The notes beneath the pieces are model-generated. The model had not been told where the DNA came from. It ran no database searches and saw nothing but the letters and a program-made list of their open reading frames with translations. A program made the translations under genes and the position numbers. 64,000 bases of DNA from positions 389,152 through 453,151 of the forward strand of contig CACEDS010000001.1 in assembly GCA_902558395.1 (NCBI GenBank), in the 5' to 3' direction. The DNA is from an uncultured SAR86 cluster bacterium. GTDB lineage: Bacteria; Pseudomonadota; Gammaproteobacteria; Magnimaribacterales; D2472. Shown one piece after another: positions 12,322-62,407 of this stretch. The stretch's first letter is position 1, and the number at the start of each line of letters is the position of its first letter.

Positions 12322-15090
12322 ATGTCAAAAATAAGAAATTCGTTATTATTATCTTTTGTATTTTTATCATTTTCGGTAATCTCGCAAGAGGTTGAAGAGG
12401 TTGTTGTTACAGCGACCAAGAAAGAAGAATCTATTCAGGATTTGGCTCTTTCAATTGAAGCTATCTCTGCTCAATCATTGGATGAGAACCAAGTCTATGA
12501 TGTGTCAGATCTTGCTGAAATTACTCCAGGTCTAGAAACATCAAAAGTTATTGGTTCTGGTTCAGGCTGGACAATAAGAGGCATGGGATCATTCGGTATT
12601 GGTGCAGGTGTTATTGCATCTGTGGTTACAGCAGTAAATGGACACAGTGTTAATGATAGTGTTGTAGCTGACACTGGTTTTTTCGATTTAGAAAGAATCG
12701 AAGTGTTAAAAGGACCTCAAGGTACTTTGTATGGTAGAAATGCTGCAAACGGTGTCATTAATTTAATCACAGCTAGACCAACTTCAGAATTTGGCGGTAA
12801 TTACGATGTTGAAATTGGTAGCTATGGTCAAATTAAAACTTCTGCAGTTGTCAATATGCCGTTTTCTGATTCATTAAGAACAAGGCTTGCTGTCTTATCT
12901 AATAAAAGAGATGGTATGGTTACTAATACTGTAACTGGTAAAGACTTTGATGATAGAAATGATATGGCATTTAGGCTTTCAGTTGATTATGATCTATCTG
13001 ACAGAACTCAGGTTCAGTTCACATACTCTGATCAAGAGAGTGATGATAATAGATTTCAAGAAGAAGTTTCATTTTGTGCTCAAAGTTTATTCTTTGGTTG
13101 TAGCCCCTATGAAAGAGGTCAAATGAATGTTGCTGCAGATACTCGAGGCCATTTCTCTGGAGCATTTGCTTTACTTGCTCATTTACATCCTGGTGTAGTT
13201 GTAAATGATTTTGCAAACTCTGTTGGATCACGTGATTTCACTAAAGTTGCTCTAAATAGGGAACCAACACACTATCAAAAACAAACAGTAGCAAATCTTC
13301 AAATTAATCATGACTTAACAGATAATTTATTGCTTACTGCTAAGGTTTCTTACGACACTAGAGATTTTCACCAGAGTGGAGACCAAGATTTATCATATTC
13401 AGCTAATCCATTCTTAGGAACAGCTGCATCATTAGGTAGACCGCCTGTTGAAAGCTACTTATGTTTTGGTGGTGAGAGACAGTTTTGTGAGAACGTTGAT
13501 TCAGAAAGAGTCTATGACTTCTCAGACGTTAACTATCACAGCACACAAATGGAGATTAACTTAGTTTCAGACTTTGATGGTCCTTTTAATTACACAGTTG
13601 GTGCTTATCAAATAGATAATAGAAATGACAATGTATACCTCGTACAAACTGCTGGATCACAAATGATGACAAGCTTTGGTAATCATCCTTACAGTGATTT
13701 TATACAGGTATTAGGATTTCCTGATTGGTCTGCTAAAGGCGGATTAGGCTTTTATCAAGATATGTTAGCTTGGCTAAATCTTGCTGGTAATGCCCTCGCA
13801 TGTCAGGGTGCTGTTCCTGGTCCATGTGATCCTGCGAAGATAGGTGCTTTTAATGATCAAACAGCTAAACAAGCTGGATATCCTAACTTTACTGTTCCAT
13901 GGGAGCTAGGTGGAGTAATAAATGATCAAAATGTTGATGATACATCTAGAGCATTATATGGAGAAATGTATTTTGATATTTCTGACGATACTAAATTAAC
14001 TCTAGGAGCTCGTTATCAAGAAGATGATGTGACTGCAGTTACTTTCAACCAAACCGGTGCAACAGGTTGGATGGCAAACGGTGGTTGGTTGTTTGAAAAT
14101 AGAGATGAAATGCGTTTTTCACCTGGTGGTAATGAGACTACTACGAAAGCCGATGATCAATTTTCATACAAGTTAGCATTGCAACACAATTTATCTGACG
14201 ATGTTATGGTTTATGGTAGTTATACAACAGCAAATAAGGCTGGTGGAGTAAATGCTGGAGCTAATCCAACAACTTATGAACCAGAAGAAGCTGGAGTCTT
14301 TGATCTTGGTCTTAAAAGTATTTTGATGGATGGAGCTATGCTTCTAAACATGAATGTGTTTAATGCAAAAAATGATGGTTTCCTTGTTGCAGCTGTTGTT
14401 AATACTGGAACAGAAAATAAAAATATTGATGCTGAATTTACCGGGTTTGAAGGTAACATGATGGTCTTTTTATCTGAAAACACAAAGCTTGAAGCTAACT
14501 GGTTATTCTTAGACCATGAAGTTGTATCTGATACTATGCTCATAGATTATCTTAATCCAACAGGTTCAACTGGAGTCTTACAAGAAGCTCAAGTTCCTGG
14601 TACTAATGGCCTTATTACCACTGCCGTTTTTAATGATGGAACTCAATGGTTTAAATCTGCTGGTTATAACTGTTCAGCGCCTGGTTTATATACAGCTGGT
14701 TGTTCTGGAGATGTTGGAATAGCGCAGAGTGTAAAAGGCAACAATCTACCAGGATCTGCTGATGCATCATATGGACTGTCTTTAACTACAGATTTTCCAG
14801 GTGAAAGAGGTGTTACTTCTGCAAGAGTATCATATAGGTATACAGGTGAAGCTGATCTAAGTATTTTCAATATGGAAAGAATGAAATTGAAAGAAAGAGA
14901 TTCATGGGATCTTTTAGTCAGATTCGTTCCTAATTCTGATGAATGGTATGCTGGTATGTACATTAAGAATATTGCTGATGAGCAGGCTCTTAATGCACTA
15001 CGTGAATCAAGTAATGTTGGCGGTGGCTCATTATTAGGTTCTTTTACCGATCCTAGAACATTCGGTATAGAATTTGGCGCTCAATTCTAA
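12322..15090 (+). CDS. TonB-dependent outer-membrane receptor (paralog 2)
   Basis: 922 aa with the same architecture as 9459-12179: EEVVVTATKKEESIQDLALSI, ERIEVLKGPQGTLYGRNA, C-terminal ...EFGAQF. It is clearly alignable with paralog 1 along the whole length. Confidence 0.9.
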   Translation: MSKIRNSLLLSFVFLSFSVISQEVEEVVVTATKKEESIQDLALSIEAISAQSLDENQVYDVSDLAEITPGLETSKVIGSGSGWTIRGMGSFGIGAGVIASVVTAVNGHSVNDSVVADTGFFDLERIEVLKGPQGTLYGRNAANGVINLITARPTSEFGGNYDVEIGSYGQIKTSAVVNMPFSDSLRTRLAVLSNKRDGMVTNTVTGKDFDDRNDMAFRLSVDYDLSDRTQVQFTYSDQESDDNRFQEEVSFCAQSLFFGCSPYERGQMNVAADTRGHFSGAFALLAHLHPGVVVNDFANSVGSRDFTKVALNREPTHYQKQTVANLQINHDLTDNLLLTAKVSYDTRDFHQSGDQDLSYSANPFLGTAASLGRPPVESYLCFGGERQFCENVDSERVYDFSDVNYHSTQMEINLVSDFDGPFNYTVGAYQIDNRNDNVYLVQTAGSQMMTSFGNHPYSDFIQVLGFPDWSAKGGLGFYQDMLAWLNLAGNALACQGAVPGPCDPAKIGAFNDQTAKQAGYPNFTVPWELGGVINDQNVDDTSRALYGEMYFDISDDTKLTLGARYQEDDVTAVTFNQTGATGWMANGGWLFENRDEMRFSPGGNETTTKADDQFSYKLALQHNLSDDVMVYGSYTTANKAGGVNAGANPTTYEPEEAGVFDLGLKSILMDGAMLLNMNVFNAKNDGFLVAAVVNTGTENKNIDAEFTGFEGNMMVFLSENTKLEANWLFLDHEVVSDTMLIDYLNPTGSTGVLQEAQVPGTNGLITTAVFNDGTQWFKSAGYNCSAPGLYTAGCSGDVGIAQSVKGNNLPGSADASYGLSLTTDFPGERGVTSARVSYRYTGEADLSIFNMERMKLKERDSWDLLVRFVPNSDEWYAGMYIKNIADEQALNALRESSNVGGGSLLGSFTDPRTFGIEFGAQF

Positions 15091-20305: not shown

Positions 20306-21037
20306 GTGATAAAAAAATTTATACATCAATTTGCTTCGCCAAAAACCTATATGTTTCAAGTAAACAGAGCATATCCTTATATTTTTTATTTATCACTAAT
20401 AACATATCTTCTATCAATTTTTTGGGGACTATTTTTAACACCTGAGGATTTTGTTCAAGGTAACTCTTATAGAATAATCTATCTTCACGTCCCAGCATCA
20501 TTTATTTCTCAATCCCTATATTTAGCAATGGCAATTGCAAGCGCTGTTTATCTTATATGGAAAGTTAAGTTATCTGTTTATCTTGTAAGATCTATAGCAC
20601 CAATTGGTGCAGTCACCACATTTATAGCTCTAATCTCAGGTTCAATCTGGGGTATACCAACATGGGGCACTTGGTGGGTTTGGGATGCCCGAATTGTATC
20701 GACCTTAATCTTATTTATTATGTATTTAGGTCTTATCTCTCTTCATGATTCTTTTAATAACAATGAAAAAGCTGATAAATTCTTATCAATCCTTGTTTTA
20801 GTGGGCTCAGTTAACATACCGATAATAAAAATGTCTGTTGAATGGTGGAGCACCTTGCACCAACCAGCATCTATCACTCTATCTGAAAAACCAGCAATTG
20901 ATCTAGTAATGCTATATCCTTTATTTGGTTCAATTATTGGTTTTACTGGGTTGATTACTTGTTTGGTAATACTTTCATCTAAACTGCAAATCATAAAAAG
21001 AGAGAAAAATAAGTCCTGGGTAAAAGACTATGTTTAA
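20306..21037 (+). CDS. ccmC: Heme exporter/heme lyase subunit CcmC
   Basis: 243 aa with RIIYLHVPAS and the tryptophan-rich WGTWWVWDAR (WWD) motif. Confidence 0.9.
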   Translation: MIKKFIHQFASPKTYMFQVNRAYPYIFYLSLITYLLSIFWGLFLTPEDFVQGNSYRIIYLHVPASFISQSLYLAMAIASAVYLIWKVKLSVYLVRSIAPIGAVTTFIALISGSIWGIPTWGTWWVWDARIVSTLILFIMYLGLISLHDSFNNNEKADKFLSILVLVGSVNIPIIKMSVEWWSTLHQPASITLSEKPAIDLVMLYPLFGSIIGFTGLITCLVILSSKLQIIKREKNKSWVKDYV

Positions 21038-21203
21038 TATTGAATTTAATACACTTGCAGAAGCGCTTTTAATGCAAAGCCAAAATGGTCAAAATCATGG
21101 CATATACGTTTGGTCCGTTGTCTTAATTGTTACATTATGTATTTCAATTTCTTTTATCTTTTACAAATATAAAATAAAAGAAATTTCTAAAAAAATTAAA
21201 TGA
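21030..21203 (+). CDS. ccmD: Heme exporter protein CcmD (not in the supplied ORF track)
   Basis: My own translation gives 57 aa: MFNIEFNTLAEALLMQSQNGQNHGIYVWSVVLIVTLCISISFIFYKYKIKEISKKIK. It has a single TM segment with a GxYVW motif. The ATG overlaps the ccmC stop, and its TGA overlaps the ccmE ATG (ATGA). Confidence 0.7.
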   Translation: MFNIEFNTLAEALLMQSQNGQNHGIYVWSVVLIVTLCISISFIFYKYKIKEISKKIK

Positions 21204-21604
21204 AACCAGTTCGAAAAAAAAGACTACAAACAGTTTTATTAATTCTAGCTACATCTGCGCTTGGATCTTTTTTTATTATTCGAGCCTTGGATTCAAAATT
21301 AGATTTTTTCTATACACCCTCAGAAATCTTTTTAGAGGAAATTCCAGAAAATAAAAGAATAAAAATTGGAGGCATGGTTTTAGAAAACTCAGTAATAAGA
21401 GAGAAAACTAAAATATCTTTTATTGTTTCAGACTATCAAGGTTCAATTAATGTTGAATTTGATGGAATAGTGCCAGATTTGTTTAAAGAAGGCAGTGGTG
21501 TAGTTGTGTTGGGTTATTTAAAAGATAAAACCATAATTGCTGAGGAAGTTTTAGCAAAGCATGATGAAAACTATATGCCGCCAAGCATAGACATAGAGAA
21601 ATAA
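21200..21604 (+). CDS. ccmE: Cytochrome c-type biogenesis heme chaperone CcmE
   Basis: 134 aa with an N-terminal TM anchor. The C-terminal LAKHDENYMPP contains the heme-binding His motif. Confidence 0.9.
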   Translation: MKPVRKKRLQTVLLILATSALGSFFIIRALDSKLDFFYTPSEIFLEEIPENKRIKIGGMVLENSVIREKTKISFIVSDYQGSINVEFDGIVPDLFKEGSGVVVLGYLKDKTIIAEEVLAKHDENYMPPSIDIEK

Positions 21605-23499
21605 TGATCATAGAGGCAGCCCAATTTTTAACTATTCTTGCTACAGGATTATTTTTTTTATGTTTTGTATTTTCTATTTTTTTTAATGTTAATGATGTAA
21701 ATATTATTAAACTTATATCTAGAATATATTCTCATAGTTTTTTTCTATTTTTGTCCTCTTTTTTAATATATGTCTGGCTGGCAATAAATGACAATTTTAG
21801 TGTTCTATACATAGCTCAACACTCAAATACGAATCTGCCAGTTTTTTACAAAATATCTTCGATATGGAGTGCACATGAAGGGTCGATGTTTCTCTGGATT
21901 ATATTTCTTAGTTTGTGGGGAGCAATTTATAATTTTTCAGTTCATAACAACGAACCACTTAAAGCAAGAACCATTGGAGTAATATCCATAACGACTGTTG
22001 GTTTTTTATTATTTTTATTACTAACGTCGAATCCATTTGAAACAATGCTTCCTCTGCCTCCAGAGAATGGAGCTGATATTAATCCTGTACTTCAAGATCC
22101 TTTGTTAGCAATTCATCCACCAACACTTTATCTTGGTTATGTTGGTTTTGTAATCGCATTTGGACAAGCAATAGCTTTTTTGATTGAAGGCAATTCTAGT
22201 ATTAATTGGGAAAAACAGGTTAGATTTTGGTCAATAATTGCTTGGTCATTTTTAACTTTAGGGATTACTTTAGGTAGTTGGTGGGCATATTATGAATTAG
22301 GATGGGGAGGGTATTGGTTTTGGGACCCGGTTGAAAACGTTGCCCTAATGCCTTGGTTAGCAGCAACAGCTTTTATTCATTCGCTAAGCGCATCATCAAA
22401 GTCATCAATCTTAAGAATTTGGACTATTTTATTGTCCATTTTAGTTTTTTCATTAAGTCTATTTGGAGCATTTATTGTAAGGTCAGGAATCATAGATAGC
22501 GTTCATTCTTTTGCAAACGATCCGGAGAGGGGCCTTTATTTGCTGGCTTTTATCGGGATATTAGTAATGACGTCTCTTATTTTATTTTCTTATAGATTTT
22601 CAATATTGATTTCAAATAAAAGAATAGTTTCTTTATCAAAAGAATCTTTTATATCAATTAATAATATTTTTTTTGGGACTTTAATTTTTTCAACAATGCT
22701 TGGTGTAATGTATCCATTAATATATGAGTTTGTTAATGATCAAAAAATAAGTGTAGGCGCACCATTTTACAATGCCATATTTGTTCCAATTACGCTTTTA
22801 GCATGCCTGTTTCTTATTTTTTCTATTGAGTCTAAATGGCAAAGCAAACTTAAATTTGCTTTTTTGAATAACCCTCTAATAATTAGCTTTGTATTTTCTT
22901 TGTTTATAACTTTTCTATCATTTAAATTTTATTCTGTATCCAGAGCCTGGACGCTAGCTTCATTATTCATTGGCTCACTAATAATTAGTAGATATATCTT
23001 GGTAATTTATGCTTATATTTTTCATAGAAAATTTGTAAATATATATAGTGTTTTAGCCCATTTAGGACTTGGATTATTAATAATATCTATAGCCCTTAAT
23101 AATGATTTTAGTTCAGAAAGAGCATTGAATATTAAAATAAATGAAACAGAAACTTATAAAAATCATGAGATTACATTTAACAATTTACAACTTACAGAAG
23201 GTCCAAACTATGAATCTGTAAAAGCAGATTTCATAATAGAAAATAAAAACGGAAATAAATTTTCTTTAAATCCTGAAAAAAGAAAATACTTTGTTAGAGG
23301 TCAAATCACAACTGAAACAGCAATACATGCCTCCTTATTAAAAGATATATATTTAACAATTGGCGATCAACTAGATGATGGAAGTTGGATTGTAAATGTT
23401 CAGTTTAATTATTTTATAAGATGGATATGGTTTTCAGCCACATTAATGATTATTTCAGGTTTATTTTTAGCTAGGTCATTAAATAGAGTGCACTCATGA
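21604..23499 (+). CDS. ccmF: Cytochrome c heme lyase subunit CcmF
   Basis: 631 aa polytopic protein with the WWD-type motif WGGYWFWDPVEN. It is in the ccm cluster. Confidence 0.93.
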   Translation: MIIEAAQFLTILATGLFFLCFVFSIFFNVNDVNIIKLISRIYSHSFFLFLSSFLIYVWLAINDNFSVLYIAQHSNTNLPVFYKISSIWSAHEGSMFLWIIFLSLWGAIYNFSVHNNEPLKARTIGVISITTVGFLLFLLLTSNPFETMLPLPPENGADINPVLQDPLLAIHPPTLYLGYVGFVIAFGQAIAFLIEGNSSINWEKQVRFWSIIAWSFLTLGITLGSWWAYYELGWGGYWFWDPVENVALMPWLAATAFIHSLSASSKSSILRIWTILLSILVFSLSLFGAFIVRSGIIDSVHSFANDPERGLYLLAFIGILVMTSLILFSYRFSILISNKRIVSLSKESFISINNIFFGTLIFSTMLGVMYPLIYEFVNDQKISVGAPFYNAIFVPITLLACLFLIFSIESKWQSKLKFAFLNNPLIISFVFSLFITFLSFKFYSVSRAWTLASLFIGSLIISRYILVIYAYIFHRKFVNIYSVLAHLGLGLLIISIALNNDFSSERALNIKINETETYKNHEITFNNLQLTEGPNYESVKADFIIENKNGNKFSLNPEKRKYFVRGQITTETAIHASLLKDIYLTIGDQLDDGSWIVNVQFNYFIRWIWFSATLMIISGLFLARSLNRVHS

Positions 23500-24026
23500 C
23501 AGTTTTTTTAAGAGTATTTATATTATGCGTATCTCTAATGTTTTTTTACTTTTTTTATTTATATATTGAAGAGGATAAATACTATCCAGGAGCAAGTTTT
23601 CAAACTTCAAATATGCCATTGTTTGAACTTGAAGATTTATATTCGGATGATGTTATAACAAATTCAGATATAGAAGGCGCACACTTAATTAACGTCTGGG
23701 CAAGCTGGTGTATTACTTGCCGAATTGAGCATGGTTTTTTAGTAAAACTAAGCTCACAAGGTATTCCTATAATGGGGCTAAATTATAAAGACGCAAGAAT
23801 TGATGCAATAAATTGGATTACAAAGTTTGGTGACCCTTATGAATTTATTATCCATGATCTAAAAGGTGAATTAGCCTTAGATATGGGTGTCACTGGCGCA
23901 CCTGAAACTTTTTTAATAAATAATGGAAAAATTATTGCTCATTACAGGGGTGAGGTAAATGAAATGATTTGGAGTGATGTTTTTTCTCCAATTATAAAAA
24001 AGGAGAACCTTTTTAATGATAATTAA
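23496..24026 (+). CDS. ccmG: Thiol:disulfide interchange protein DsbE/CcmG
   Basis: 176 aa with a TM anchor, the thioredoxin-like WASWCITC active site and GVTGAPETFLI. Confidence 0.85.
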   Translation: MTVFLRVFILCVSLMFFYFFYLYIEEDKYYPGASFQTSNMPLFELEDLYSDDVITNSDIEGAHLINVWASWCITCRIEHGFLVKLSSQGIPIMGLNYKDARIDAINWITKFGDPYEFIIHDLKGELALDMGVTGAPETFLINNGKIIAHYRGEVNEMIWSDVFSPIIKKENLFNDN

Positions 24027-24393
24027 ATCGTTGTTATTTATATTTTTTATATCCTCAACAAATGTTTTGGGTGATTCTTTATATAATTTTGAAAATATAA
24101 AAGATGAAGAAAGGTTTTATAGTTTAATAAAAGAAATTAGATGTCCAAAATGTACTAGTGGATCACTTGCAAGCTCTAATGCTCCGGTATCTGAGGATAT
24201 CAAAGAGAAAATTATAGAATTAATTAAAGAAGGCAAAACTGATGATGAGATTAAGACTTTTCTGTCTGATAGGTTTGGAAATGAAGTCTTATACAATCCA
24301 GGATTGAATAGCAATACGTATATTCTTTGGATTGCACCAGTATTATTTTTATTTATTGCTTTGTTAATATTCTTTTTTAGAAGAAAGACATAA
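24016..24393 (+). CDS. ccmH: Cytochrome c-type biogenesis protein CcmH
   Basis: 125 aa with a signal peptide, IRCPKCTSGSLASSNAP (CxxC redox motif) and a C-terminal TM segment. Confidence 0.8.
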   Translation: MIIKSLLFIFFISSTNVLGDSLYNFENIKDEERFYSLIKEIRCPKCTSGSLASSNAPVSEDIKEKIIELIKEGKTDDEIKTFLSDRFGNEVLYNPGLNSNTYILWIAPVLFLFIALLIFFFRRKT

Positions 24394-25172
24394 TGTTTTT
24401 TATATACTTCTTAGCTTTCTTTGCATTCATTCCAATCTTGGCATATCTGTTATCGCAAAATACAAACAATAAAGGATATATTTTTGGAATCTCTTTTTTA
24501 GTTGTTCTTGTTTGTTTATTTACTGTTGTTGGAAAATACTCATTCTTAGGCTCAATTAAAAATCAAAAGATCAATTCAGAAATTCTTATGAATATTAACG
24601 TTAATAGTAAAATTTCTGAAAACATTACAAGAGAATTTAATAACAATATTAGCAATGAAGATAAAGTGTATTGGCTGCAAAGTTATATTAATAAAGCCAT
24701 TGAAGACAGTAAATTTATTGCTGCTGAAAGCTTAATTTCTATCTCAGAGCAATACTTTCAAACCACAGATGAAAAATTTATTTTTTATACCTTATACACA
24801 AAACTTAGAGACGCAAAATTCCCTGATTTTGCAAAGTCTAAATTAATTATAAATCTTAACTCTCCTCCAGAGTGCTCTAATTTTTTTGGTACAGCAGAAG
24901 TATTTATAATGAATGGTCCAAAAATACCCATAGCCTTAAAAAAATTCACGAATTCTTCTGAATTTGAATTAGAAAATGTTCATTCCTCCATTCCTGGTTT
25001 TGATTTGGCTTCTGCCTATCTAAATCAAGAAACTCTTGATTTAAAAGTATCATTAAACTGCCCTGAAACAGCCTCTATTTTTTATTCTGAAAACGCTTTG
25101 TTAATTGATAACAATCAGCCTGTAAATTCCTATAATATTAAGGCAAATGAATGGTTTAAAAGGGAACAATAG
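24393..25172 (+). CDS. Putative CcmI-like cytochrome c biogenesis accessory protein
   Basis: 259 aa with two N-terminal TM helices, ATGA-coupled to ccmH, in the position of ccmI. The call rests on position only, since sequence similarity is not evident by eye. Confidence 0.4.
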   Translation: MFFIYFLAFFAFIPILAYLLSQNTNNKGYIFGISFLVVLVCLFTVVGKYSFLGSIKNQKINSEILMNINVNSKISENITREFNNNISNEDKVYWLQSYINKAIEDSKFIAAESLISISEQYFQTTDEKFIFYTLYTKLRDAKFPDFAKSKLIINLNSPPECSNFFGTAEVFIMNGPKIPIALKKFTNSSEFELENVHSSIPGFDLASAYLNQETLDLKVSLNCPETASIFYSENALLIDNNQPVNSYNIKANEWFKREQ

Positions 25173-28193: not shown

Positions 28194-28831
28194 TGGACTC
28201 CAATATAGATATATATTTAATTGGCATTTCTGTTTTAGTATTCCTAATAATTACATTTCTTTTCATTAGAAAAATTTCTAATAGAGGAGAGCTCAAAGTA
28301 AAAATTGAGCCTGTTACAGACACTTTTGAAATAAAAGAGTTTGATGAAATTGATATAAAGTCTCAAAAAGCTTTTGATTTTGAAGATAAAGATCACATTG
28401 ATTATCAAGAACAAAAACTTGTTGTCTTAAACTTAATATCCATTGATAAGTCCATGTTCGAAATTGATCAAGTATATGGGTTTATGAATAATCTCGGAGC
28501 AACCCTATCTCATGGATTTTTTGTTATAAAAGATAGTGACTATAAAGAGTCTTTTAGAATAGCCAATGCTTTAAACCCTGGAACATTTGAAGCAGATACT
28601 AGCACTTTCGCAATTCTTGTAGCCGCTGATCTTAATAACGTCTTGGACCCGATTAAAACAGTAAAAGATATGGTAAATTTTGCTTATGAATTTACTGAAA
28701 AGTTTTATGCCAATATTTGTGACCAAGAGAGAATGCCAATAACAAAACAAATGATTTCTCATATTGAGTCTCAAGCTCAAGAGATTGCAAGGCTGAAACA
28801 ACTGGCAGTTGCTGAAAAATCTGATAAATGA
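28190..28831 (+). CDS. zipA: Cell division protein ZipA-like
   Basis: 213 aa with an N-terminal TM anchor (IYLIGISVLVFLIITFLFI). The C-terminal domain pattern (VVLNLIS...FMNNLG...FRIANALNPGTF...ILVAADL...MVNFAYEF...DQERMPITKQ) is like the ZipA FtsZ-binding domain. ATGA-coupled to smc. Confidence 0.65.
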   Translation: MMDSNIDIYLIGISVLVFLIITFLFIRKISNRGELKVKIEPVTDTFEIKEFDEIDIKSQKAFDFEDKDHIDYQEQKLVVLNLISIDKSMFEIDQVYGFMNNLGATLSHGFFVIKDSDYKESFRIANALNPGTFEADTSTFAILVAADLNNVLDPIKTVKDMVNFAYEFTEKFYANICDQERMPITKQMISHIESQAQEIARLKQLAVAEKSDK

Positions 28832-30111
28832 AGCCCTGGAAAATAATTCAAAAACTTGAAAGTAATAACAGTAGATTATTCAAAGAAAGCGTTATTGAAG
28901 AAAATATTAATGACCTAGAATTTCAAGAAGGTCTATCAATGTGCTTAGATGCATTAGTAACATTTGGTGTTAAACAAGTTCCTAAATCTGATAAAAATGG
29001 AAATGGATTAGATTGGAGCACTTTTAAGAACTCAGCTTTACTTCTGATTGAAAGAGAGAAAACTGGTCATGCTGCTAGGGATGAAATTTTGGAGCTAATG
29101 GATAAAGCCACTTCGGAAGAGTGGAATGATTGGTATAGAAGAATCTTAATAAAGGATTTGAGGTGCGGCGTAAGTGAGAAGACGGTGAACAATGTCGCAA
29201 AAAAAATAGATATTCAATTTAGAGTGCCTGTTTTTGCATGCATGCTATCTCATGACGGAATGAAACATCCAAAAAAGATTAAAGGTAACTGTTTAATTGA
29301 ATATAAATATGATGGAGTGAGAGTAATAGCAATAACTAAGAAAAATAATACAACCCTCTACAGTAGAAATGGAAAAATATTTAGCAATTTTCCTCATATT
29401 GAAGAAGCATTAAGCAAACCTGAATTTAATGATATGGTTTTTGATGGCGAAGTGATGAGTGATGATTTTCAATCATTAATGAAACAGGTTCATAGGAAAA
29501 CCAATGCAAAAACAGAAGATGCATATTTAGCTTTGTTTGATATCTTACCTCTTAAAGAATTTAACGATGGAAAAAGCAAGCTCACAACCCTTGAAAGAAA
29601 ACATCATTTAGAGAAATTTGCTAAAAAATTTCCTTCATGTATTAAGATTGTTGATTATACGGTTGTAGATTTTGATAAAGAGCAGGGTGAAGAAATTTAT
29701 ACTCAAATGAACAAAGAGGCTTTAGAGCGAGGCTATGAAGGGTTGATGATTAAACCTGAAAATGATTTATATGAGTGCAAAAGAAGTCATGCTTGGCTAA
29801 AAATGAAACCTTTTATTGAAGTTACATTAAAAGTAACCGAGGTTCACGAGGGCACTGGAAGGCATGCTGGTAAACTGGGAGCATTTTCAGTTGAGGGCAA
29901 TGACGATGGCAAATTTTTCTCATTAAATGTGGGCAGTGGCTTGACTGATGAAAATAGAGAAAAATTCTGGCAATATAAAGATTCATTGATAGGACAATTA
30001 ATAGAAATTCGAGCAGATGCAGTAACTCAGAGTATGGAAGGTGAAAATTACAGTTTGAGATTTCCACGTTTTAAAACATTCAGAGGTTTTGAGCCAGGGG
30101 AAAAAATCTGA
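28828..30111 (+). CDS. ATP-dependent DNA ligase
   Basis: 427 aa nucleotidyltransferase. Motif I is EYKYDGVR (Lys160, nt 29305-29307), motif III FDGEVM, motif IV EGLMIKP, motif V WLKMKP. There is an OB-fold-like C-terminus and an N-terminal extension of about 150 aa. ATGA-coupled to zipA. Confidence 0.9.
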   Translation: MKPWKIIQKLESNNSRLFKESVIEENINDLEFQEGLSMCLDALVTFGVKQVPKSDKNGNGLDWSTFKNSALLLIEREKTGHAARDEILELMDKATSEEWNDWYRRILIKDLRCGVSEKTVNNVAKKIDIQFRVPVFACMLSHDGMKHPKKIKGNCLIEYKYDGVRVIAITKKNNTTLYSRNGKIFSNFPHIEEALSKPEFNDMVFDGEVMSDDFQSLMKQVHRKTNAKTEDAYLALFDILPLKEFNDGKSKLTTLERKHHLEKFAKKFPSCIKIVDYTVVDFDKEQGEEIYTQMNKEALERGYEGLMIKPENDLYECKRSHAWLKMKPFIEVTLKVTEVHEGTGRHAGKLGAFSVEGNDDGKFFSLNVGSGLTDENREKFWQYKDSLIGQLIEIRADAVTQSMEGENYSLRFPRFKTFRGFEPGEKI

Positions 30112-59675: not shown

Positions 59676-59891
59676 ATGGCATGGGAGGATAGAACTCCTT
59701 TTGACGCTATTGAAGCTACTTTTGGCCTTAATCAGAATCAGGTTGAAGATTTGATGAGAAAAAATCTAAAAAAGGGTAGTTATACTCTTTGGAGAAAGAG
59801 GGCAAGAGGAAGAAAAACCAAACACTTGGGTTTAAGAGATTTTGAAGTTGGAAGACATCATTCATATGACCAAAACAAACTTAAAAGCTAA
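59676..59891 (+). CDS. TIGR03643/DUF2805 family protein (5' end uncertain)
   Basis: MAWEDRTPFDAIEATFGL...LWRKRARGRKTKH matches this small conserved family. Family-like residues (EEEISRIIE) continue in frame upstream of the ATG. Confidence 0.7.
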   Translation: MAWEDRTPFDAIEATFGLNQNQVEDLMRKNLKKGSYTLWRKRARGRKTKHLGLRDFEVGRHHSYDQNKLKS

Positions 59892-60180
59892 TCATATTAA
59901 AATTGAAAACCTTTATAAATCTATGTTTTCAGAGGTTAAGCATACATCTATAAATATAAGAGATGATAAGGTAGAAATAATTCATTTAAGTGAGCAAAAC
60001 CAGGATCCAGCAATTATCGAACTTTCTGAAACTAAAATTTGCTATGTTATTAGCTATTGGGATGGCTATTCTTTATCAGAAAATGAAGAATCTGGTGACA
60101 TAATGAAGGCCTTAAAAATATTTAGAAGATATGCAAAAAAAATGGCCAAAAATCTTAAAAAGTTTTCTGACCATAATTAG
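59866..60180 (+). CDS. Hypothetical protein
   Basis: About 104 aa from the ATG at 59866 (the track start at 59842 overlaps the previous gene more deeply). No motif recognised. Confidence 0.35.
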   Translation: MTKTNLKANHIKIENLYKSMFSEVKHTSINIRDDKVEIIHLSEQNQDPAIIELSETKICYVISYWDGYSLSENEESGDIMKALKIFRRYAKKMAKNLKKFSDHN

Positions 60181-60194
60181 TTTGTTCTCTTAGG

Positions 60195-62084
60195 TTAATA
60201 ACCATCGTCTGACGAATTATTTCCAGATGAATTGGTATAATGCGATTTTGGTTTAAAAAGTTCATCAGAAGACGCGCTTTCAGAGCCATGATAGCCTTGT
60301 CCATTTGGCATGTAAAATGTAAGGTTAGGGTATTCATAAAAAGTGTGCTCATGATCTTCACTGCTCTGTTTTTGTAAATAAACTTTGTAAGTAAAACCCG
60401 ATGCGCCTTTGTATGGGCCTGTTGCAACAGTTCCTTTTACTTGCAGAGCTCCAGATGAGTTTGTAATGTCAATGTTATCTACATTAAAATTTTCAACTTT
60501 TACAATTTTTCCTCTTGTATACATGCCAGAATGGAACTCACAATAAGGAAAGATTTCATCGGGAGTATTGGATGTAACAGTCAATGTTAATGTATCTTTA
60601 TCCCAGCCTTCATTGTTACCAATTTCAGCACTACTATCTCTATCATCAACTTCAGTAGATAATAAAAATGGATGGTTTGACGTTACAGTGCTTGTTGGAT
60701 CAAATTTTATAATATCACCTTCTCTTACATATATTATAAAATCTGTATTTGATGGGTTTACTGCATCAACTAGATAATTGGAGCTACCCTCATTAGATAA
60801 AGAGTAGGATGTAGTTATTAAATTTTCTTCATTATCAGAAATAGTCATTCCTTCCCATGATGAATTTTCATTTATCCAATTAATAGTGTTGAATGTTAAT
60901 TTATCTATTTCATCTAAATCAGCGGTTCCATTCATTACAGCTTCCATCAAGTCTTCTAATTCTTTAGTACCAACCTTTGTAAAATAAGAGTGTGTATTAT
61001 TATTATCTGCATACATTTTTTGTAAAAATGAGGATATTCCTGCTGAAAGACTTACTAATTGACTACTTGAGGGTGAGAAGTCGTCGTCAAGATTACTGAG
61101 CAAGTTTTTAATGAAAGTTGTATCTGAAAGAGAAGTTTCATCATCGGTTCTTTCAAGTATATTTTGTGCTAAGTACCATTCAGAACTATTTTCACCAAAA
61201 GTATGAATTTCTCTGAGTACTTCATTTAATACAATGAGCTGTGAATATATCACTGCAACCTTATTAGAAACACTAGATGATAAACTTGTATAAGGATTAT
61301 CAAACCTAATCATAAAATCTGAATCTATACCTAATTTAGCCTTTAAAGCTTCATATTCAGTGTTATTATCATATAAATAAAGCAGTGTTGTCGCTGGGTT
61401 AATTATAAAATTCTGACTAGTTGTTGGCTCACCTATGACTGCAAACCTACCTTCTTCAATTTGCCAGTTAGTATTTGAATCAAATCCATTTTCAGCTTTT
61501 ATGATTCCTGTTCCTGCATCAGAGTTAATACTGAGGCTGAATGAACCATCTTGTGCTGTTGATGTGGTGAAAGTTGCATTGCTGCATAATGTTTCGATGT
61601 CCTCAACAAAGCATACATCTGCAGACTGTATGGGGCCAGAAAGCACATAGTTTCCATCGTAGTTATCAGTTGTTACATCATCCCCCGTATCATTAGTTAC
61701 AGTTACTTCAAAGTTAGCAGAAGCATTCGCACTTCCATCAGAAACTGTTACAGTAATTTTATAAATATTGTTTGTGTCTAAGTCAGATGGATTTTCAAAA
61801 TCAGGTTCGGCGTTAAAGGTTACTACACCTTGATTAGAAATTGTAAAGATGTTTGCATCATCACCACTTATTGTATAAGTAAGATTATCACCATCTGGAT
61901 CACTTGCATTAACAGTGAAGGCCGAAGTTTGATTCTCAACAACAGATATGCTCATGTTGGTGTTAGTAATTGATGGAGGATTATTAGTTGGTGGGGAGTA
62001 TCCAGAACCAGATCCACCTGATCCACCACCACCACAAGCAGTAATAATAATTAATGATATAAATAATAGGGTATAGTTTTTCAT
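60195..62084 (-). CDS. Multidomain lipoprotein: cadherin-like repeat, beta-sandwich, helical region, cupredoxin-like (type-1 Cu) domain, His-rich tail
   Basis: I chose the ATG at 62084 (GGAGA RBS 6 nt upstream) over the GTG at 62105. Signal peptide plus lipobox LIIITAC, followed by a GGGGSGGSGSG linker. Domain evidence is under the two sub-features. Confidence 0.8.
   Translation of the reverse strand: MKNYTLLFISLIIITACGGGGSGGSGSGYSPPTNNPPSITNTNMSISVVENQTSAFTVNASDPDGDNLTYTISGDDANIFTISNQGVVTFNAEPDFENPSDLDTNNIYKITVTVSDGSANASANFEVTVTNDTGDDVTTDNYDGNYVLSGPIQSADVCFVEDIETLCSNATFTTSTAQDGSFSLSINSDAGTGIIKAENGFDSNTNWQIEEGRFAVIGEPTTSQNFIINPATTLLYLYDNNTEYEALKAKLGIDSDFMIRFDNPYTSLSSSVSNKVAVIYSQLIVLNEVLREIHTFGENSSEWYLAQNILERTDDETSLSDTTFIKNLLSNLDDDFSPSSSQLVSLSAGISSFLQKMYADNNNTHSYFTKVGTKELEDLMEAVMNGTADLDEIDKLTFNTINWINENSSWEGMTISDNEENLITTSYSLSNEGSSNYLVDAVNPSNTDFIIYVREGDIIKFDPTSTVTSNHPFLLSTEVDDRDSSAEIGNNEGWDKDTLTLTVTSNTPDEIFPYCEFHSGMYTRGKIVKVENFNVDNIDITNSSGALQVKGTVATGPYKGASGFTYKVYLQKQSSEDHEHTFYEYPNLTFYMPNGQGYHGSESASSDELFKPKSHYTNSSGNNSSDDGY
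60492..60815 (-). other. Cupredoxin-like domain with candidate type-1 copper ligand set (aa ~431-538 of the track ORF)
   Basis: His478 lies in TSNHPFLL. Then 44 aa later comes PYCEFHSGMYTRGKIVKVE, i.e. Cys-x2-His-x2-Met followed by GK(I/V)V.VE. This is the ligand spacing and C-terminal strand of amicyanin (YHCTPHPFMRGKVVVE). Confidence 0.65.
61692..61979 (-). other. Cadherin-like repeat domain of the lipoprotein (aa ~43-138 of the track ORF)
   Basis: PPSITNTNMSISVVENQTSAFTVNASDPDGDNLTYTISGDDANIFTISNQGVVTFNAEPDFE...YKITVTVSDG...FEVTVTN is the typical bacterial cadherin/Dystroglycan-type pattern (V.EN, DPDGD.LTY, F.I...G.v, DFE). Confidence 0.75.
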
Positions 62085-62407
62085 ACTTGTCTCCAGTTTT
62101 TTCACACAAATATATGTATGAAATCTTCTGGGCGTCCTAAATTTGTAAATTTATTAAATGCCTTTAATAAATAAGATTTAGGCAAAGCAGAAAAAGTTGT
62201 ATTGCTTGTAATTAATTTTATTTGGAGAGGAGATAGTTTACATATCCTAATAGGGGAGAACATAAAACTATAAAAATGTAATCCAAGCAATACTTGTAGT
62301 GAATACTATTTTATTAAATAAATATTTGTCAAATTATTTATAAATGCTTATTTATAGGGCTTTAAAGGAATATATTTTTGTAGTTTTACTACAATTATAA
62401 AAATTTT

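What the first reader, a model, noticed from the sequence alone, without database searches (positions are those of the whole stretch)
60195..62084. Lipoprotein fusing a cadherin-like repeat to an amicyanin-like type-1 copper (cupredoxin) domain
This 629-aa protein has a lipobox (LIIITA-C), a Gly/Ser linker and a clear cadherin-type repeat (V.EN…DPDGDNLTYTISG…VTFNAEPDFE…VTVSDG). Then come a Cys-pair beta-sandwich segment, a ~170-aa helical region, and a ~100-aa beta domain. That last domain has a full blue-copper ligand set at canonical spacing: His478 (SNHPF), then 44 residues later Cys522-x2-His525-x2-Met528 within PYCEFHSGMYTRGKIVKVE. Paracoccus amicyanin ends YHCTPHPFMRGKVVVE, with ligands H53/C92/H95/M98 and the same C-x2-H-x2-M spacing. 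A His-rich tail follows (EDHEH, YHGSES, KSHY). Lipid-anchored cupredoxins are known, for example Neisseria Laz, a lipid-modified azurin. I do not know of a described cupredoxin embedded in a large adhesin-like, cadherin-bearing lipoprotein. It stands alone after a 320-bp promoter region, with no neighbouring oxidase, nitrite reductase or methylamine dehydrogenase partner. Its redox partner and role (surface electron transfer, copper handling, or oxidative chemistry on bound polymers) are therefore open.
Basis: partly seen in the sequence, partly recalled or inferred. Interest (0 to 1): 0.7.

Follow-up and report, generated by a model that had tools for sequence, protein, structure and literature searches.

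The report
SAR86 lipoprotein with blue-copper domain
A lipid-anchored protein kept in nearly all genomes of SAR86, a very abundant group of ocean bacteria, ends in a divergent blue-copper (cupredoxin) domain with a complete, invariant copper-ligand set plus an undescribed histidine-rich module; both modules also occur in marine phage tail proteins, and the protein's function is untested.

Summary
Window 60195-62084 (minus strand) encodes a 629-aa lipoprotein. Its parts are a Gly/Ser linker, one cadherin-like repeat, a small beta-sandwich, a ~180-aa helical domain, a ~110-aa beta domain and a His-rich C-terminus.

The beta domain is a cupredoxin. Its family profile links through a Pfam Copper-bind protein to plastocyanin, amicyanin and pseudoazurin. 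The AlphaFold model's best PDB matches are almost all cupredoxins, though weakly.

Three corrections apply:
- The domain resembles amicyanin only in loop spacing. It belongs to an uncharacterised 'HPF...CxxHxxM' subfamily, found in small secreted proteins and in cyanophage tail-fibre and baseplate proteins.
- The cadherin repeat is a replaceable stalk. Some relatives carry Ser/Thr-rich linkers instead.
- The 'His-rich tail' is a folded, conserved module (invariant HxH, H, M) with no known relative.

The family is found almost only in SAR86 (56 species-level genomes) and has no conserved partner gene.

Most likely it is an outer-membrane-tethered blue-copper redox head. Copper binding and function are untested. 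I rate it a new variant of a known kind, of moderate to high interest.

The parts
62303..62332 (-). Promoter-like site (TTGACA, 16-18 nt spacer, AATAGT/TAGTAT) in the 323-bp gap after proA
   Evidence: Consensus scan. Such matches are not enriched over shuffled sequence, so this is only a candidate.
62091..62094 (-). GGAG Shine-Dalgarno, 6 nt upstream of the ATG at 62084
   Evidence: Sequence. It favours the 629-aa ATG start over the GTG at 62105.
62034..62084 (-). Lipoprotein signal peptide with lipobox (LIIITA-C); Cys17 is the lipidated residue, followed by Gly at +2
   Evidence: Translation. Cys17 followed by GGGG is conserved in full-length relatives.
61977..62033 (-). Gly/Ser/Pro-rich flexible linker (aa 18-36)
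   Evidence: Sequence. pLDDT is about 30 in the full-length model.
61695..61976 (-). Cadherin-like / Big_9 repeat (aa 37-130); a variable stalk element
   Evidence: Pfam Big_9 at 1.1e-6 and Cadherin at 4.1e-6. PDB CDHR2 at 6.6e-6. Foldseek to cadherins at 1e-8. Absent in P0122, and replaced by Ser/Thr-rich linkers in P0124 and P0126.
61401..61670 (-). Beta-sandwich with the Cys158/Cys167 pair (aa 139-228); it carries a carboxypeptidase-regulatory-like 'tD.dG.FSl' motif
   Evidence: AlphaFold2 strands at pLDDT about 90. Weak profile hit to a SusC N-terminal domain, E 0.095. The Cys pair is kept only in the closer SAR86 clades.
60864..61397 (-). Helical domain (aa 230-407), about nine helices, with no known relative
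   Evidence: AlphaFold2. No significant Pfam or PDB sequence hit. Conserved across the family.
60477..60815 (-). Divergent cupredoxin domain (aa 424-536) of the 'HPF...CxxHxxM' subfamily
60672..60674 (-). His471 codon, predicted N-terminal copper ligand (motif N-H-P-F)
   Evidence: Invariant in full-length relatives. Aligned to the plastocyanin His ligand.
60522..60542 (-). Cys515-x2-His518-x2-Met521 ligand loop
   Evidence: Cys and His are invariant. Met is nearly invariant, and the one exception seen is Gln. Cys515 ends a strand and the loop precedes the last strand.
60237..60446 (-). Folded His-rich 'HxH/FYMP' beta module (aa 547-616) with invariant G563, H578, H580, P586, F590, M592 and H599, and near-invariant H615
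   Evidence: Alignment A4. Conservation counts. Six strands at pLDDT about 90 in the C-terminal model, pTM 0.84. No PDB or Pfam relative. Occurs alone in other proteins.
60198..60236 (-). Disordered Ser/Gly/Asp-rich end (aa 617-629) with a conserved terminal Gly-Tyr
   Evidence: pLDDT about 30. The terminal Tyr is present in 128 of the 129 aligned sequences that reach this column.

Best explanation
The gene encodes a lipoprotein that is most likely sorted to the outer membrane. Its N-terminal half is a tether and scaffold: a flexible linker, an exchangeable cadherin-like stalk, a small beta-sandwich and a helical domain. Its C-terminal half is the working head. That head is a divergent cupredoxin domain that binds one copper through His471, Cys515, His518 and Met521 (a type-1 'blue' site). 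Packed against it is a conserved His-rich beta module that probably holds a second metal ion.

The head would carry out one-electron transfer in the periplasm or at the cell surface, in the manner of lipid-anchored cupredoxins such as Neisseria Laz. It has no dedicated partner gene.

Shown here:
- the domain architecture;
- cupredoxin homology and fold;
- invariance of the ligand set;
- restriction of the family to SAR86 and long-term vertical inheritance;
- absence of a conserved neighbouring gene.

Inferred, not shown:
- copper occupancy;
- electron-transfer function;
- outer-membrane or surface location;
- a second metal site.
For: **Lipoprotein.** The lipobox and Cys17 are conserved.

**Cupredoxin homology.**
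- The family profile's best PDB hits are plastocyanins and a pseudoazurin, with the ligands aligned.
- Transitive hhalign links are strong: family to P0203 domains at 97.4%, E 9e-12; P0203 to solved cupredoxins at 97.9%, E 4e-13; P0203 to Pfam Copper-bind at E 5e-13.
- JGI labels relatives 'plastocyanin'.

**Fold.** The AlphaFold2 model has pLDDT 86.7 and pTM 0.84. Its top 50 Foldseek PDB hits are almost all cupredoxin-fold proteins.

**Ligand set.**
- It is invariant to 28% identity and across the wider subfamily.
- The single Met substitution seen is Gln, the alternative axial ligand of stellacyanin (the stellacyanin point is established knowledge).

**Relatives that look like electron carriers.** Many subfamily members are secreted single-domain proteins of about 110-210 aa, the format of classical small blue-copper proteins.

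**His-rich module.** Three His and one Met are invariant, and it is modelled confidently in contact with the cupredoxin domain.

**Selection.** The gene is kept in 56 species-level genomes, almost all SAR86. About 35 of these share synteny down to 44% identity.

**Weak context hint.** In one clade the gene lies between katG and a Redoxin gene on the same strand.
Against: - No direct Pfam Copper-bind or Cupredoxin hit for the query.
- The direct profile match to solved cupredoxins is weak: hhalign 31%, E 5e-4; PDB hmmsearch E about 0.02.
- Foldseek PDB E-values are only 0.04-0.13, with rmsd 5-9 A.
- The Asn that usually follows the first His ligand is replaced by Pro.
- No redox partner gene is conserved next to this gene or next to the small relatives.
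- The same domain sits in cyanophage tail-fibre and baseplate proteins, where electron transfer has no obvious role. This favours a structural or binding role for the metal site.
Confidence: 0.45

Rival explanations
1. Metal-stabilised binding or adhesion head. The cupredoxin-like domain and the HxH/FYMP module are extracellular structural modules, as in phage tail fibres. Their metal sites only rigidify the fold. The lipoprotein would bind a surface, polymer or particle rather than transfer electrons.
For: - The closest structural relatives are cyanophage tail-fibre, baseplate-connector and virion proteins: Foldseek BFVD E down to 3e-7, rmsd 2-3 A over about 110 columns.
- tblastn hits the domain in Synechococcus phage baseplate wedge tail fiber connectors at E 8e-5, and the motif is intact there.
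- Distant relatives fall in the PHROG tail families 677 and 30742, and also in PHROG 9158, whose function is unknown.
- The HxH/FYMP module occurs in phage-like proteins.
- HxH motifs coordinate structural iron in T4 gp37 fibres (established knowledge, Bartual et al. 2010).
- The protein has a cadherin-like stalk and no redox partner.
Against: - A purely structural site would not need the full Cys/His/His/Met set, with Gln as the only alternative. That pattern is specific to type-1 copper.
- Many relatives are small secreted single-domain proteins, not fibres.
- No carbohydrate-binding or adhesin family was detected in the head.
Confidence: 0.22
2. Copper capture or buffering protein. The head binds copper at the Cys/His/His/Met site and at the His cluster in order to acquire, store or detoxify copper at the envelope. 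The blue, Cys/Met/His copper site of the transporter OprC and periplasmic copper chaperones are the analogies.
For: - Two conserved clusters of copper-type ligands lie in one head.
- It is an envelope lipoprotein on a long tether.
- In one relative the gene lies next to a TonB-dependent receptor and an ABC uptake system. In another, a TonB receptor lies two genes away and a DUF4399 gene is adjacent.
- There is no partner enzyme.
Against: - The transporter neighbours are not conserved.
- No copA, cusF, copC or pcuAC-type genes are nearby.
- Buried type-1 sites exchange metal slowly and are not typical of chaperones (established knowledge).
Confidence: 0.13
3. Two-centre copper enzyme. The type-1 site feeds electrons to a second, catalytic copper held by H578, H580 and H599 (plus or minus H615 or the terminal Tyr) in the adjacent module. 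This would make a minimal surface oxidoreductase, for example acting on superoxide or oxygen or on Fe/Cu redox state.
For: - Invariant HxH lies on one strand, with further invariant His residues.
- The module is modelled as rigidly packed on the cupredoxin domain, pTM 0.84.
- The HxH-plus-His arrangement recalls the type-2 and Cu,Zn-SOD copper sites (established knowledge; an analogy only).
- One clade has katG and Redoxin neighbours.
Against: - The two modules also occur separately in other proteins, so they are not an obligate pair.
- The module has no homology to any known enzyme.
- The distance between the putative sites could not be measured.
Confidence: 0.12
4. A cupredoxin-fold domain that no longer binds metal. 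The four residues would be conserved for folding or interaction reasons.
For: Metal-free cupredoxin-fold domains exist (established knowledge). The domain is divergent and lacks the His-Asn pair.
Against: All four ligand positions are invariant at canonical spacing over large sequence distances, including phage and small secreted relatives. The only axial alternative seen is the canonical one.
Confidence: 0.07

Closest known systems
Small type-1 blue copper proteins (plastocyanin, pseudoazurin, amicyanin; Pfam Copper-bind PF00127)
   Same: - Domain of about 100 aa with a Greek-key beta-sandwich.
- His ... Cys-x-x-His-x-x-Met ligand set in the same places: Cys ends the penultimate strand, and the loop leads into the last strand.
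- The loop length equals that of amicyanin.
- Homology is supported transitively, and the fold is supported by Foldseek.
   Different: - No direct Pfam hit.
- The motif is His-Pro-Phe instead of His-Asn.
- An insert follows the His strand.
- The domain is embedded at the C-terminus of a 629-aa lipoprotein.
- There is no mau, nir or photosynthetic partner context.
Neisseria Laz (lipid-modified azurin) and other lipid-anchored cupredoxins
   Same: A lipobox-anchored cupredoxin on a flexible, low-complexity linker. It is a stand-alone gene that presumably serves envelope redox reactions. What is known of Laz is recalled from the literature, not tested here.
   Different: - Laz is a short linker plus an azurin domain.
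- Here the tether includes three folded domains, the cupredoxin belongs to another subfamily, and an extra His-rich module follows.
Cyanophage tail-fibre / baseplate 'HPF...YYxCxxHxxM' domain (PHROG 677, 30742, 9158)
   Same: This is the closest relative by structure and sequence: BFVD E to 3e-7, tblastn E 8e-5, and the same ligand motif.
   Different: - The phage copies are virion structural proteins, often with tandem repeats and collagen-like segments.
- The query itself does not reach these PHROG models.
- No function or metal content is described for the phage domain in the papers searched.
Bacterial cadherin-like / Big_9 repeats of surface proteins
   Same: The aa 37-130 repeat matches Big_9 and Cadherin models and cadherin structures.
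   Different: There is a single repeat used as a stalk. It is absent from part of the family. A tandem SAR86B paralogue uses the same stalk with a different head.

Membership tests
Cupredoxin / type-1 blue copper protein | Greek-key beta-sandwich fold of about 100 residues | tested here: met
   The AlphaFold2 C-terminal model has pLDDT 86.7. Its 50 best Foldseek PDB matches are almost all cupredoxin-fold proteins, with TM (target) up to 0.55. E-values are only 0.04-0.13.
Cupredoxin / type-1 blue copper protein | His ... Cys-Xn-His-Xn-Met ligand set at canonical positions, conserved among homologues | tested here: met
   H471, C515, H518 and M521 are invariant in full-length relatives down to 28% identity and in the wider subfamily. 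The one Met substitution seen is Gln. They align to the plastocyanin ligands.
Cupredoxin / type-1 blue copper protein | Sequence-profile membership (Pfam Copper-bind or a related model) | tested here: inconclusive
   The query has no hit even at E 10. One of 30 subfamily domains hits Copper-bind, at E 0.015. The transitive links are strong: family to P0203 at 97.4%, P0203 to solved cupredoxins at 97.9%, and P0203 to Pfam Copper-bind at 5e-13.
Cupredoxin / type-1 blue copper protein | Binds one copper, with a ~600 nm charge-transfer band and narrow EPR hyperfine splitting | not testable with these tools
   Needs purified protein.
Cupredoxin / type-1 blue copper protein | The four ligand side chains converge in three dimensions | not testable with these tools
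   The model coordinates are not exposed. Only secondary structure and Foldseek summaries are available.
Amicyanin | Cys-x2-His-x2-Met ligand loop | tested here: met
   C515-E-F-H518-S-G-M521.
Amicyanin | Specific sequence similarity to amicyanin | tested here: not met
   hhalign of the family profile against 1AAC amicyanin gives probability 4%, E 0.01. Plastocyanins score better.
Amicyanin | Methylamine dehydrogenase (mau) gene context | tested here: not met
   The neighbours are proA/proB and the Era-to-RsmJ housekeeping block. No mau genes were seen in any locus examined.
Lipid-anchored cupredoxin (Laz-like) | Lipoprotein signal peptide with a lipobox Cys and a flexible linker | tested here: met
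   LIIITA-C followed by a Gly/Ser linker, conserved across the family.
Lipid-anchored cupredoxin (Laz-like) | Azurin-type cupredoxin domain | tested here: not met
   The ligand loop is C-x2-H-x2-M, not azurin's C-x4-H-x4-M (the azurin spacing is established knowledge). No azurin appears among the listed PDB sequence or fold matches, which are plastocyanin, pseudoazurin, rusticyanin and AcoP.
Cadherin-like / Big_9 repeat | Profile and structural match to the cadherin-type beta-sandwich | tested here: met
   Big_9 scores 29.8 bits (cut-off 23.6). Cadherin scores 27.5 bits (cut-off 28.8). CDHR2 matches at E 6.6e-6. Foldseek to protocadherin-24 gives 1e-8.
Phage tail-fibre 'HPF...CxxHxxM' domain (PHROG 677, 30742, 9158) | Sequence or structure match to the phage domain, with the motif retained | tested here: met
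   BFVD Foldseek E down to 3e-7. tblastn E 8e-5 to Synechococcus phage baseplate wedge tail fiber connectors. The motif was read in phage MA01. The query itself does not reach the PHROG models at E 0.01.

The most novel reading that the evidence does not exclude
The C-terminal head is a new kind of minimal two-centre copper redox device. A type-1 copper in an unrecognised cupredoxin subfamily would be wired to a second copper held by the invariant HxH/His cluster, possibly with the terminal Tyr, of a module that has no known relatives. SAR86 would display this head on a stalk at the cell envelope, for example to handle superoxide or oxygen or Fe/Cu redox state in sunlit, metal-poor seawater. 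Marine phages carry the same two modules on virion proteins, which would imply copper chemistry at virus and cell surfaces.
Probability: 0.12. Interest if true: 0.85.

Novelty: new variant of a known kind. Interest (0 to 1): 0.6.

Why it matters
- SAR86 is among the most abundant heterotrophic bacteria of the surface ocean, and most of its lineage-specific genes have no known function. This gene is kept, usually at one fixed core-genome position, across SAR86 clades A, B and E and the TMED112 lineage. It is therefore under long-term selection.
- The work defines an unrecognised cupredoxin subfamily that still has a complete type-1 ligand set. The subfamily spans small secreted bacterial proteins, this large lipoprotein and cyanophage tail-fibre and baseplate proteins.
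- It also defines a second His-rich module that has no entry in Pfam or the PDB.
- If copper binding is confirmed, there would be a new class of envelope copper proteins relevant to marine copper and iron use. There would also be an unexpected question: why do phage virions carry blue-copper-type sites?
- A simple spectroscopic experiment on a 210-residue fragment can test this.

Tried and rejected
- **Single-sequence Pfam and NCBIfam scans.** The whole protein and its halves gave only the cadherin/Big_9 hit and noise.
- **Foldseek of the full-length model.** It returned only cadherins, so a separate C-terminal model was needed.
- **Amicyanin-specific kinship.** Rejected: hhalign probability 4%.
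- **Multicopper oxidase, NirK or CuA readings.** Rejected from the sequence. There is a single Cys, no H-C-H or C-x-E-x-C motif, and only one cupredoxin domain.
- **Helical domain as an EfeO/imelysin-like or other known domain.** No PDB or Pfam support.
- **His-rich module as a YHYH, SOD, CopC or PCuAC relative.** No profile hit at E 10.
- **Conserved partner gene.** Searched in the window, in 56 genomic loci, in four distant homologues and in three small relatives. None is shared across clades.
- **Regulatory RNA in the 5' gap.** None found.
- **Literature.** Searches on SAR86 + cupredoxin, cupredoxin + tail fibre, cyanophage + plastocyanin-like or cupredoxin, At5g54830 and YHYH found nothing describing this family.
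- **The search for related loci with the full-length alignment.** It failed for lack of a conserved stretch. It was repeated successfully with the C-terminal alignment.
- **PF25489 'At5g54830-like' hits.** Seen for 12 of 30 subfamily domains, but all are sub-threshold. I treated them as unexplained similarity, not as an assignment.
Full report
**Observation.** The window is low-GC (about 32%) DNA from a SAR86 gammaproteobacterium. The closest genomic loci are SAR86 single-cell genomes with the same gene order. An ORF runs on the minus strand from 62105 (GTG) or 62084 (ATG) to the stop codon at 60195-60197. A GGAG sequence 6 nt upstream favours the ATG, which gives 629 aa. In ATG numbering the putative ligands are H471, C515, H518 and M521. 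From this protein's composition, a chance C-x2-H-x2-M match is expected about 7e-4 times (my calculation).

**Architecture.** The full-length AlphaFold2 model was built on 18 aligned relatives and has mean pLDDT 78. It shows:
- a disordered lipoprotein signal and Gly/Ser linker (aa 1-36);
- a cadherin-type sandwich (aa 37-130);
- a second beta-sandwich (aa 139-228);
- a helical domain (aa 230-407);
- a beta domain (aa 424-530).

The tail is poorly resolved in this model.

The cadherin assignment is supported by four results. Pfam Big_9 scores above its threshold. Pfam Cadherin falls just below its threshold. The best PDB sequence match is CDHR2 (E 6.6e-6). Foldseek matches protocadherins at 1e-8. 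The second sandwich carries a carboxypeptidase-regulatory-like motif and has only a weak PDB hit. The helical domain has no detectable relative.

**Is the beta domain a cupredoxin?**
- *Single-sequence searches.* They say nothing.
- *Exhaustive search.* Aa 140-629 were searched against 1.8 billion cluster representatives. Only 93 hits came back. Five are full-length relatives at 28-56% identity. A set of unrelated proteins also matched aa 424-549 only, often as tandem repeats.
- *Bridge protein.* One of these, P0203, is a genuine Pfam Copper-bind protein (E 5e-13, three domains).
- *Profile against the PDB.* A profile of 30 domains that excludes P0203 has plastocyanins and a pseudoazurin as its nine best PDB hits. 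E is about 0.02, and the His of HPF and the Cys and His of the loop fall on the copper ligands.
- *Profile-profile comparison.* The family matches the P0203 domains at 97.4% (E 9e-12). The P0203 domains match plastocyanin + amicyanin + pseudoazurin at 97.9% (E 4e-13). The direct comparison of the family with those three is weak (31%, E 5e-4).
- *Structure.* A second AlphaFold2 run on aa 418-629 with 40 aligned sequences gave pLDDT 86.7 and pTM 0.84. Its 50 best PDB matches are almost all cupredoxin-fold proteins: AcoP, plastocyanin, pseudoazurin, rusticyanin, the CuA domains of nitrous-oxide reductase and ba3 oxidase, multicopper oxidases and nitrite reductases. None reaches E 0.001, and TM on the target is at most 0.55.
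- *Independent labels.* JGI names some relatives 'plastocyanin'.

I conclude that the domain is a divergent cupredoxin. 'Amicyanin-like' applies only to the loop length, because the direct comparison with amicyanin gives probability 4%.

**Ligand conservation.** H471, C515, H518 and M521 are identical in all full-length relatives down to 28% identity. They are essentially invariant in a 165-sequence family alignment; the few exceptions are in fragmentary sequences. In the wider subfamily His, Pro, Cys and His are invariant and Met is over 90% conserved. The single substitution seen is Gln, the known alternative axial ligand. In the model, Cys515 ends a strand and the His/Met loop leads into the last strand, as in cupredoxins. 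The Asn that normally follows the first His is replaced by Pro-Phe.

**The 'tail' is a module.** With the deeper alignment, aa 547-616 fold into six strands at pLDDT about 90, and the overall pTM of 0.84 suggests they pack on the cupredoxin domain. G563, H578, H580, P586, F590, M592 and H599 are invariant. H615 and a terminal Gly-Tyr are nearly so. The module has no PDB or Pfam relative. It also occurs on its own. One carrier is a 972-aa protein with two copies that looks like a phage fibre by eye (no PHROG hit). Others are small proteins, one of them on a contig with a faint phage-type DUF2460 hit, and one GC-rich protein. H578 and H580 sit two residues apart on one strand, so they face the same side. 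That is the usual geometry of metal-binding HxH motifs.

**Relatives and distribution.**
- *Genomes.* A pattern scan of one genome per species found the family in 56 genomes. Nearly all are labelled SAR86 (clades A, B and E, TMED112) or unclassified marine Gammaproteobacteria.
- *Synteny.* In about 35 of these genomes the gene sits at the same place, convergent with the Era-RecO-AcpS-Adk-TsaB-UppP-RsmJ block, down to 44% protein identity. This indicates old vertical inheritance.
- *Other contexts.* Other clades place the gene elsewhere: katG-gene-Redoxin, IDO-gene-DUF4399, COQ7-gene and GFA-gene. No neighbour is shared by all.
- *Variable stalk.* The cadherin repeat is absent in P0122 and is replaced by Ser/Thr-rich linkers in P0124 and P0126. 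A SAR86B genome has a tandem paralogue with the same lipobox-cadherin stalk and an unrelated head. The stalk is therefore exchangeable, and the conserved core is sandwich + helical domain + cupredoxin + His module.
- *Phage relatives of the cupredoxin domain.* The closest relatives by structure are T4-like cyanophage tail-fibre, baseplate-connector and virion proteins (BFVD E to 3e-7). The domain hits Synechococcus phage baseplate wedge tail fiber connectors directly (E 8e-5), and the phage MA01 protein keeps HPF ... C-x2-H-x2-M. Distant relatives fall in PHROG tail families.
- *Small secreted relatives.* The same subfamily includes hundreds of secreted single-domain proteins of about 110-210 aa. 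Almost all are annotated 'hypothetical', and they too lack conserved partner genes.

**Mechanism.** The best-supported reading is a lipid-anchored blue-copper head on a long tether. Gly at +2 argues for outer-membrane sorting under the E. coli Lol rule, which is an inference. The head most likely does one-electron transfer in the envelope, as lipid-modified azurin does in Neisseria (recalled knowledge). An adjacent His cluster may bind a second metal.

My estimates are:
- about 0.9 that the domain is a cupredoxin;
- about 0.65 that it binds copper at a type-1 site;
- about 0.4-0.45 that its role is electron transfer.

The phage occurrence is the main argument for the rival reading, in which the metal sites only stabilise an extracellular binding module. 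Copper capture and a two-centre enzyme are further possibilities. None can be settled without protein chemistry.

**Novelty and score.** Cupredoxins and lipid-anchored cupredoxins are known, so this is a new variant of a known kind and not a new category. Three things appear undescribed in the literature I could search:
- the architecture;
- the unrecognised 'HPF' subfamily shared with phage virion proteins;
- the orphan His-rich module.

The gene is also a conserved marker of a globally abundant lineage. I score interest at 0.6.

Noticed in passing
window 59842-60180 (+), overlapping the DUF2805 gene at 59676-59891: A 112-aa ORF with no Pfam hit overlaps the end of the DUF2805 gene by 50 nt. 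It ends 14 nt from the stop codon of the lipoprotein gene, in convergent orientation. It is conserved at 42-86% identity at the same place in most SAR86 loci, so it is probably a real, uncharacterised gene.
   Followed up: partly
L050 6615-7913 (+), a SAR86B MAG: Immediately downstream of the family member lies a 432-aa paralogous lipoprotein. It has the same signal peptide and a cadherin-like stalk, but a different C-terminal head with no Pfam hit. This suggests a modular 'stalk plus head' design for SAR86 lipoproteins.
   Followed up: partly
L057, L058, L065 and L067 (one SAR86 clade): The family gene is flanked on the same strand by katG (catalase-peroxidase) upstream and a Redoxin/AhpC-TSA gene downstream. 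This may hint at an oxidative-stress link, but it is limited to one clade.
   Followed up: partly
P0209 (972 aa), P0205, P0213, P0184, P0212, P0247-P0261: The 'GYxYPLY ... HxHTFxEYP..xFYMP ... HG' module occurs without the cupredoxin domain in other proteins. Carriers include a 972-aa protein with two copies that looks like a phage fibre by eye (no PHROG hit) and small proteins, one on a contig with a faint phage-type DUF2460 hit. Several of these proteins also end in G-x-Y.
   Followed up: partly
P0207 (154 aa; found, sequence): A small lipoprotein (lipobox, then GGGGGGG) with a single domain of the same subfamily. Gln replaces the axial Met, as in stellacyanin, and the C-terminus is GGGGGGGY. 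It looks like a miniature of the SAR86 protein's two ends.
   Followed up: no
window 60198-60236 (-), aa 617-629: The disordered acidic Ser/Gly tail ends in a Gly-Tyr that is conserved in 128 of 129 sequences. Its role (metal ligand, sorting signal or neither) is unknown.
   Followed up: no
window 9459-12179 and 12322-15090 (+): Two adjacent paralogous TonB-dependent receptor genes (906 and 922 aa), identified by eye from their N-terminal plug motifs. This is typical of SAR86 and apparently unrelated to the finding.
   Followed up: no
window 20306-25172 (+): Cytochrome c maturation genes (CcmC-like and CcmF-like, followed by a CcmH-like ORF), identified by eye. The organism therefore makes c-type cytochromes, which could exchange electrons with a cupredoxin.
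   Followed up: no
window 28828-30111 (+): A 427-aa ORF that looks like an ATP-dependent DNA ligase (KYDGVR-type motif, by eye), directly after the SMC gene.
   Followed up: no
P0165, P0196, P0208 (metagenomic proteins): Proteins that combine collagen-like Gly-X-Y repeats with one to three copies of the HPF...CxxHxxM domain. They match PHROG tail-fibre families strongly (PHROG 677 at E down to 3e-64).
   Followed up: partly
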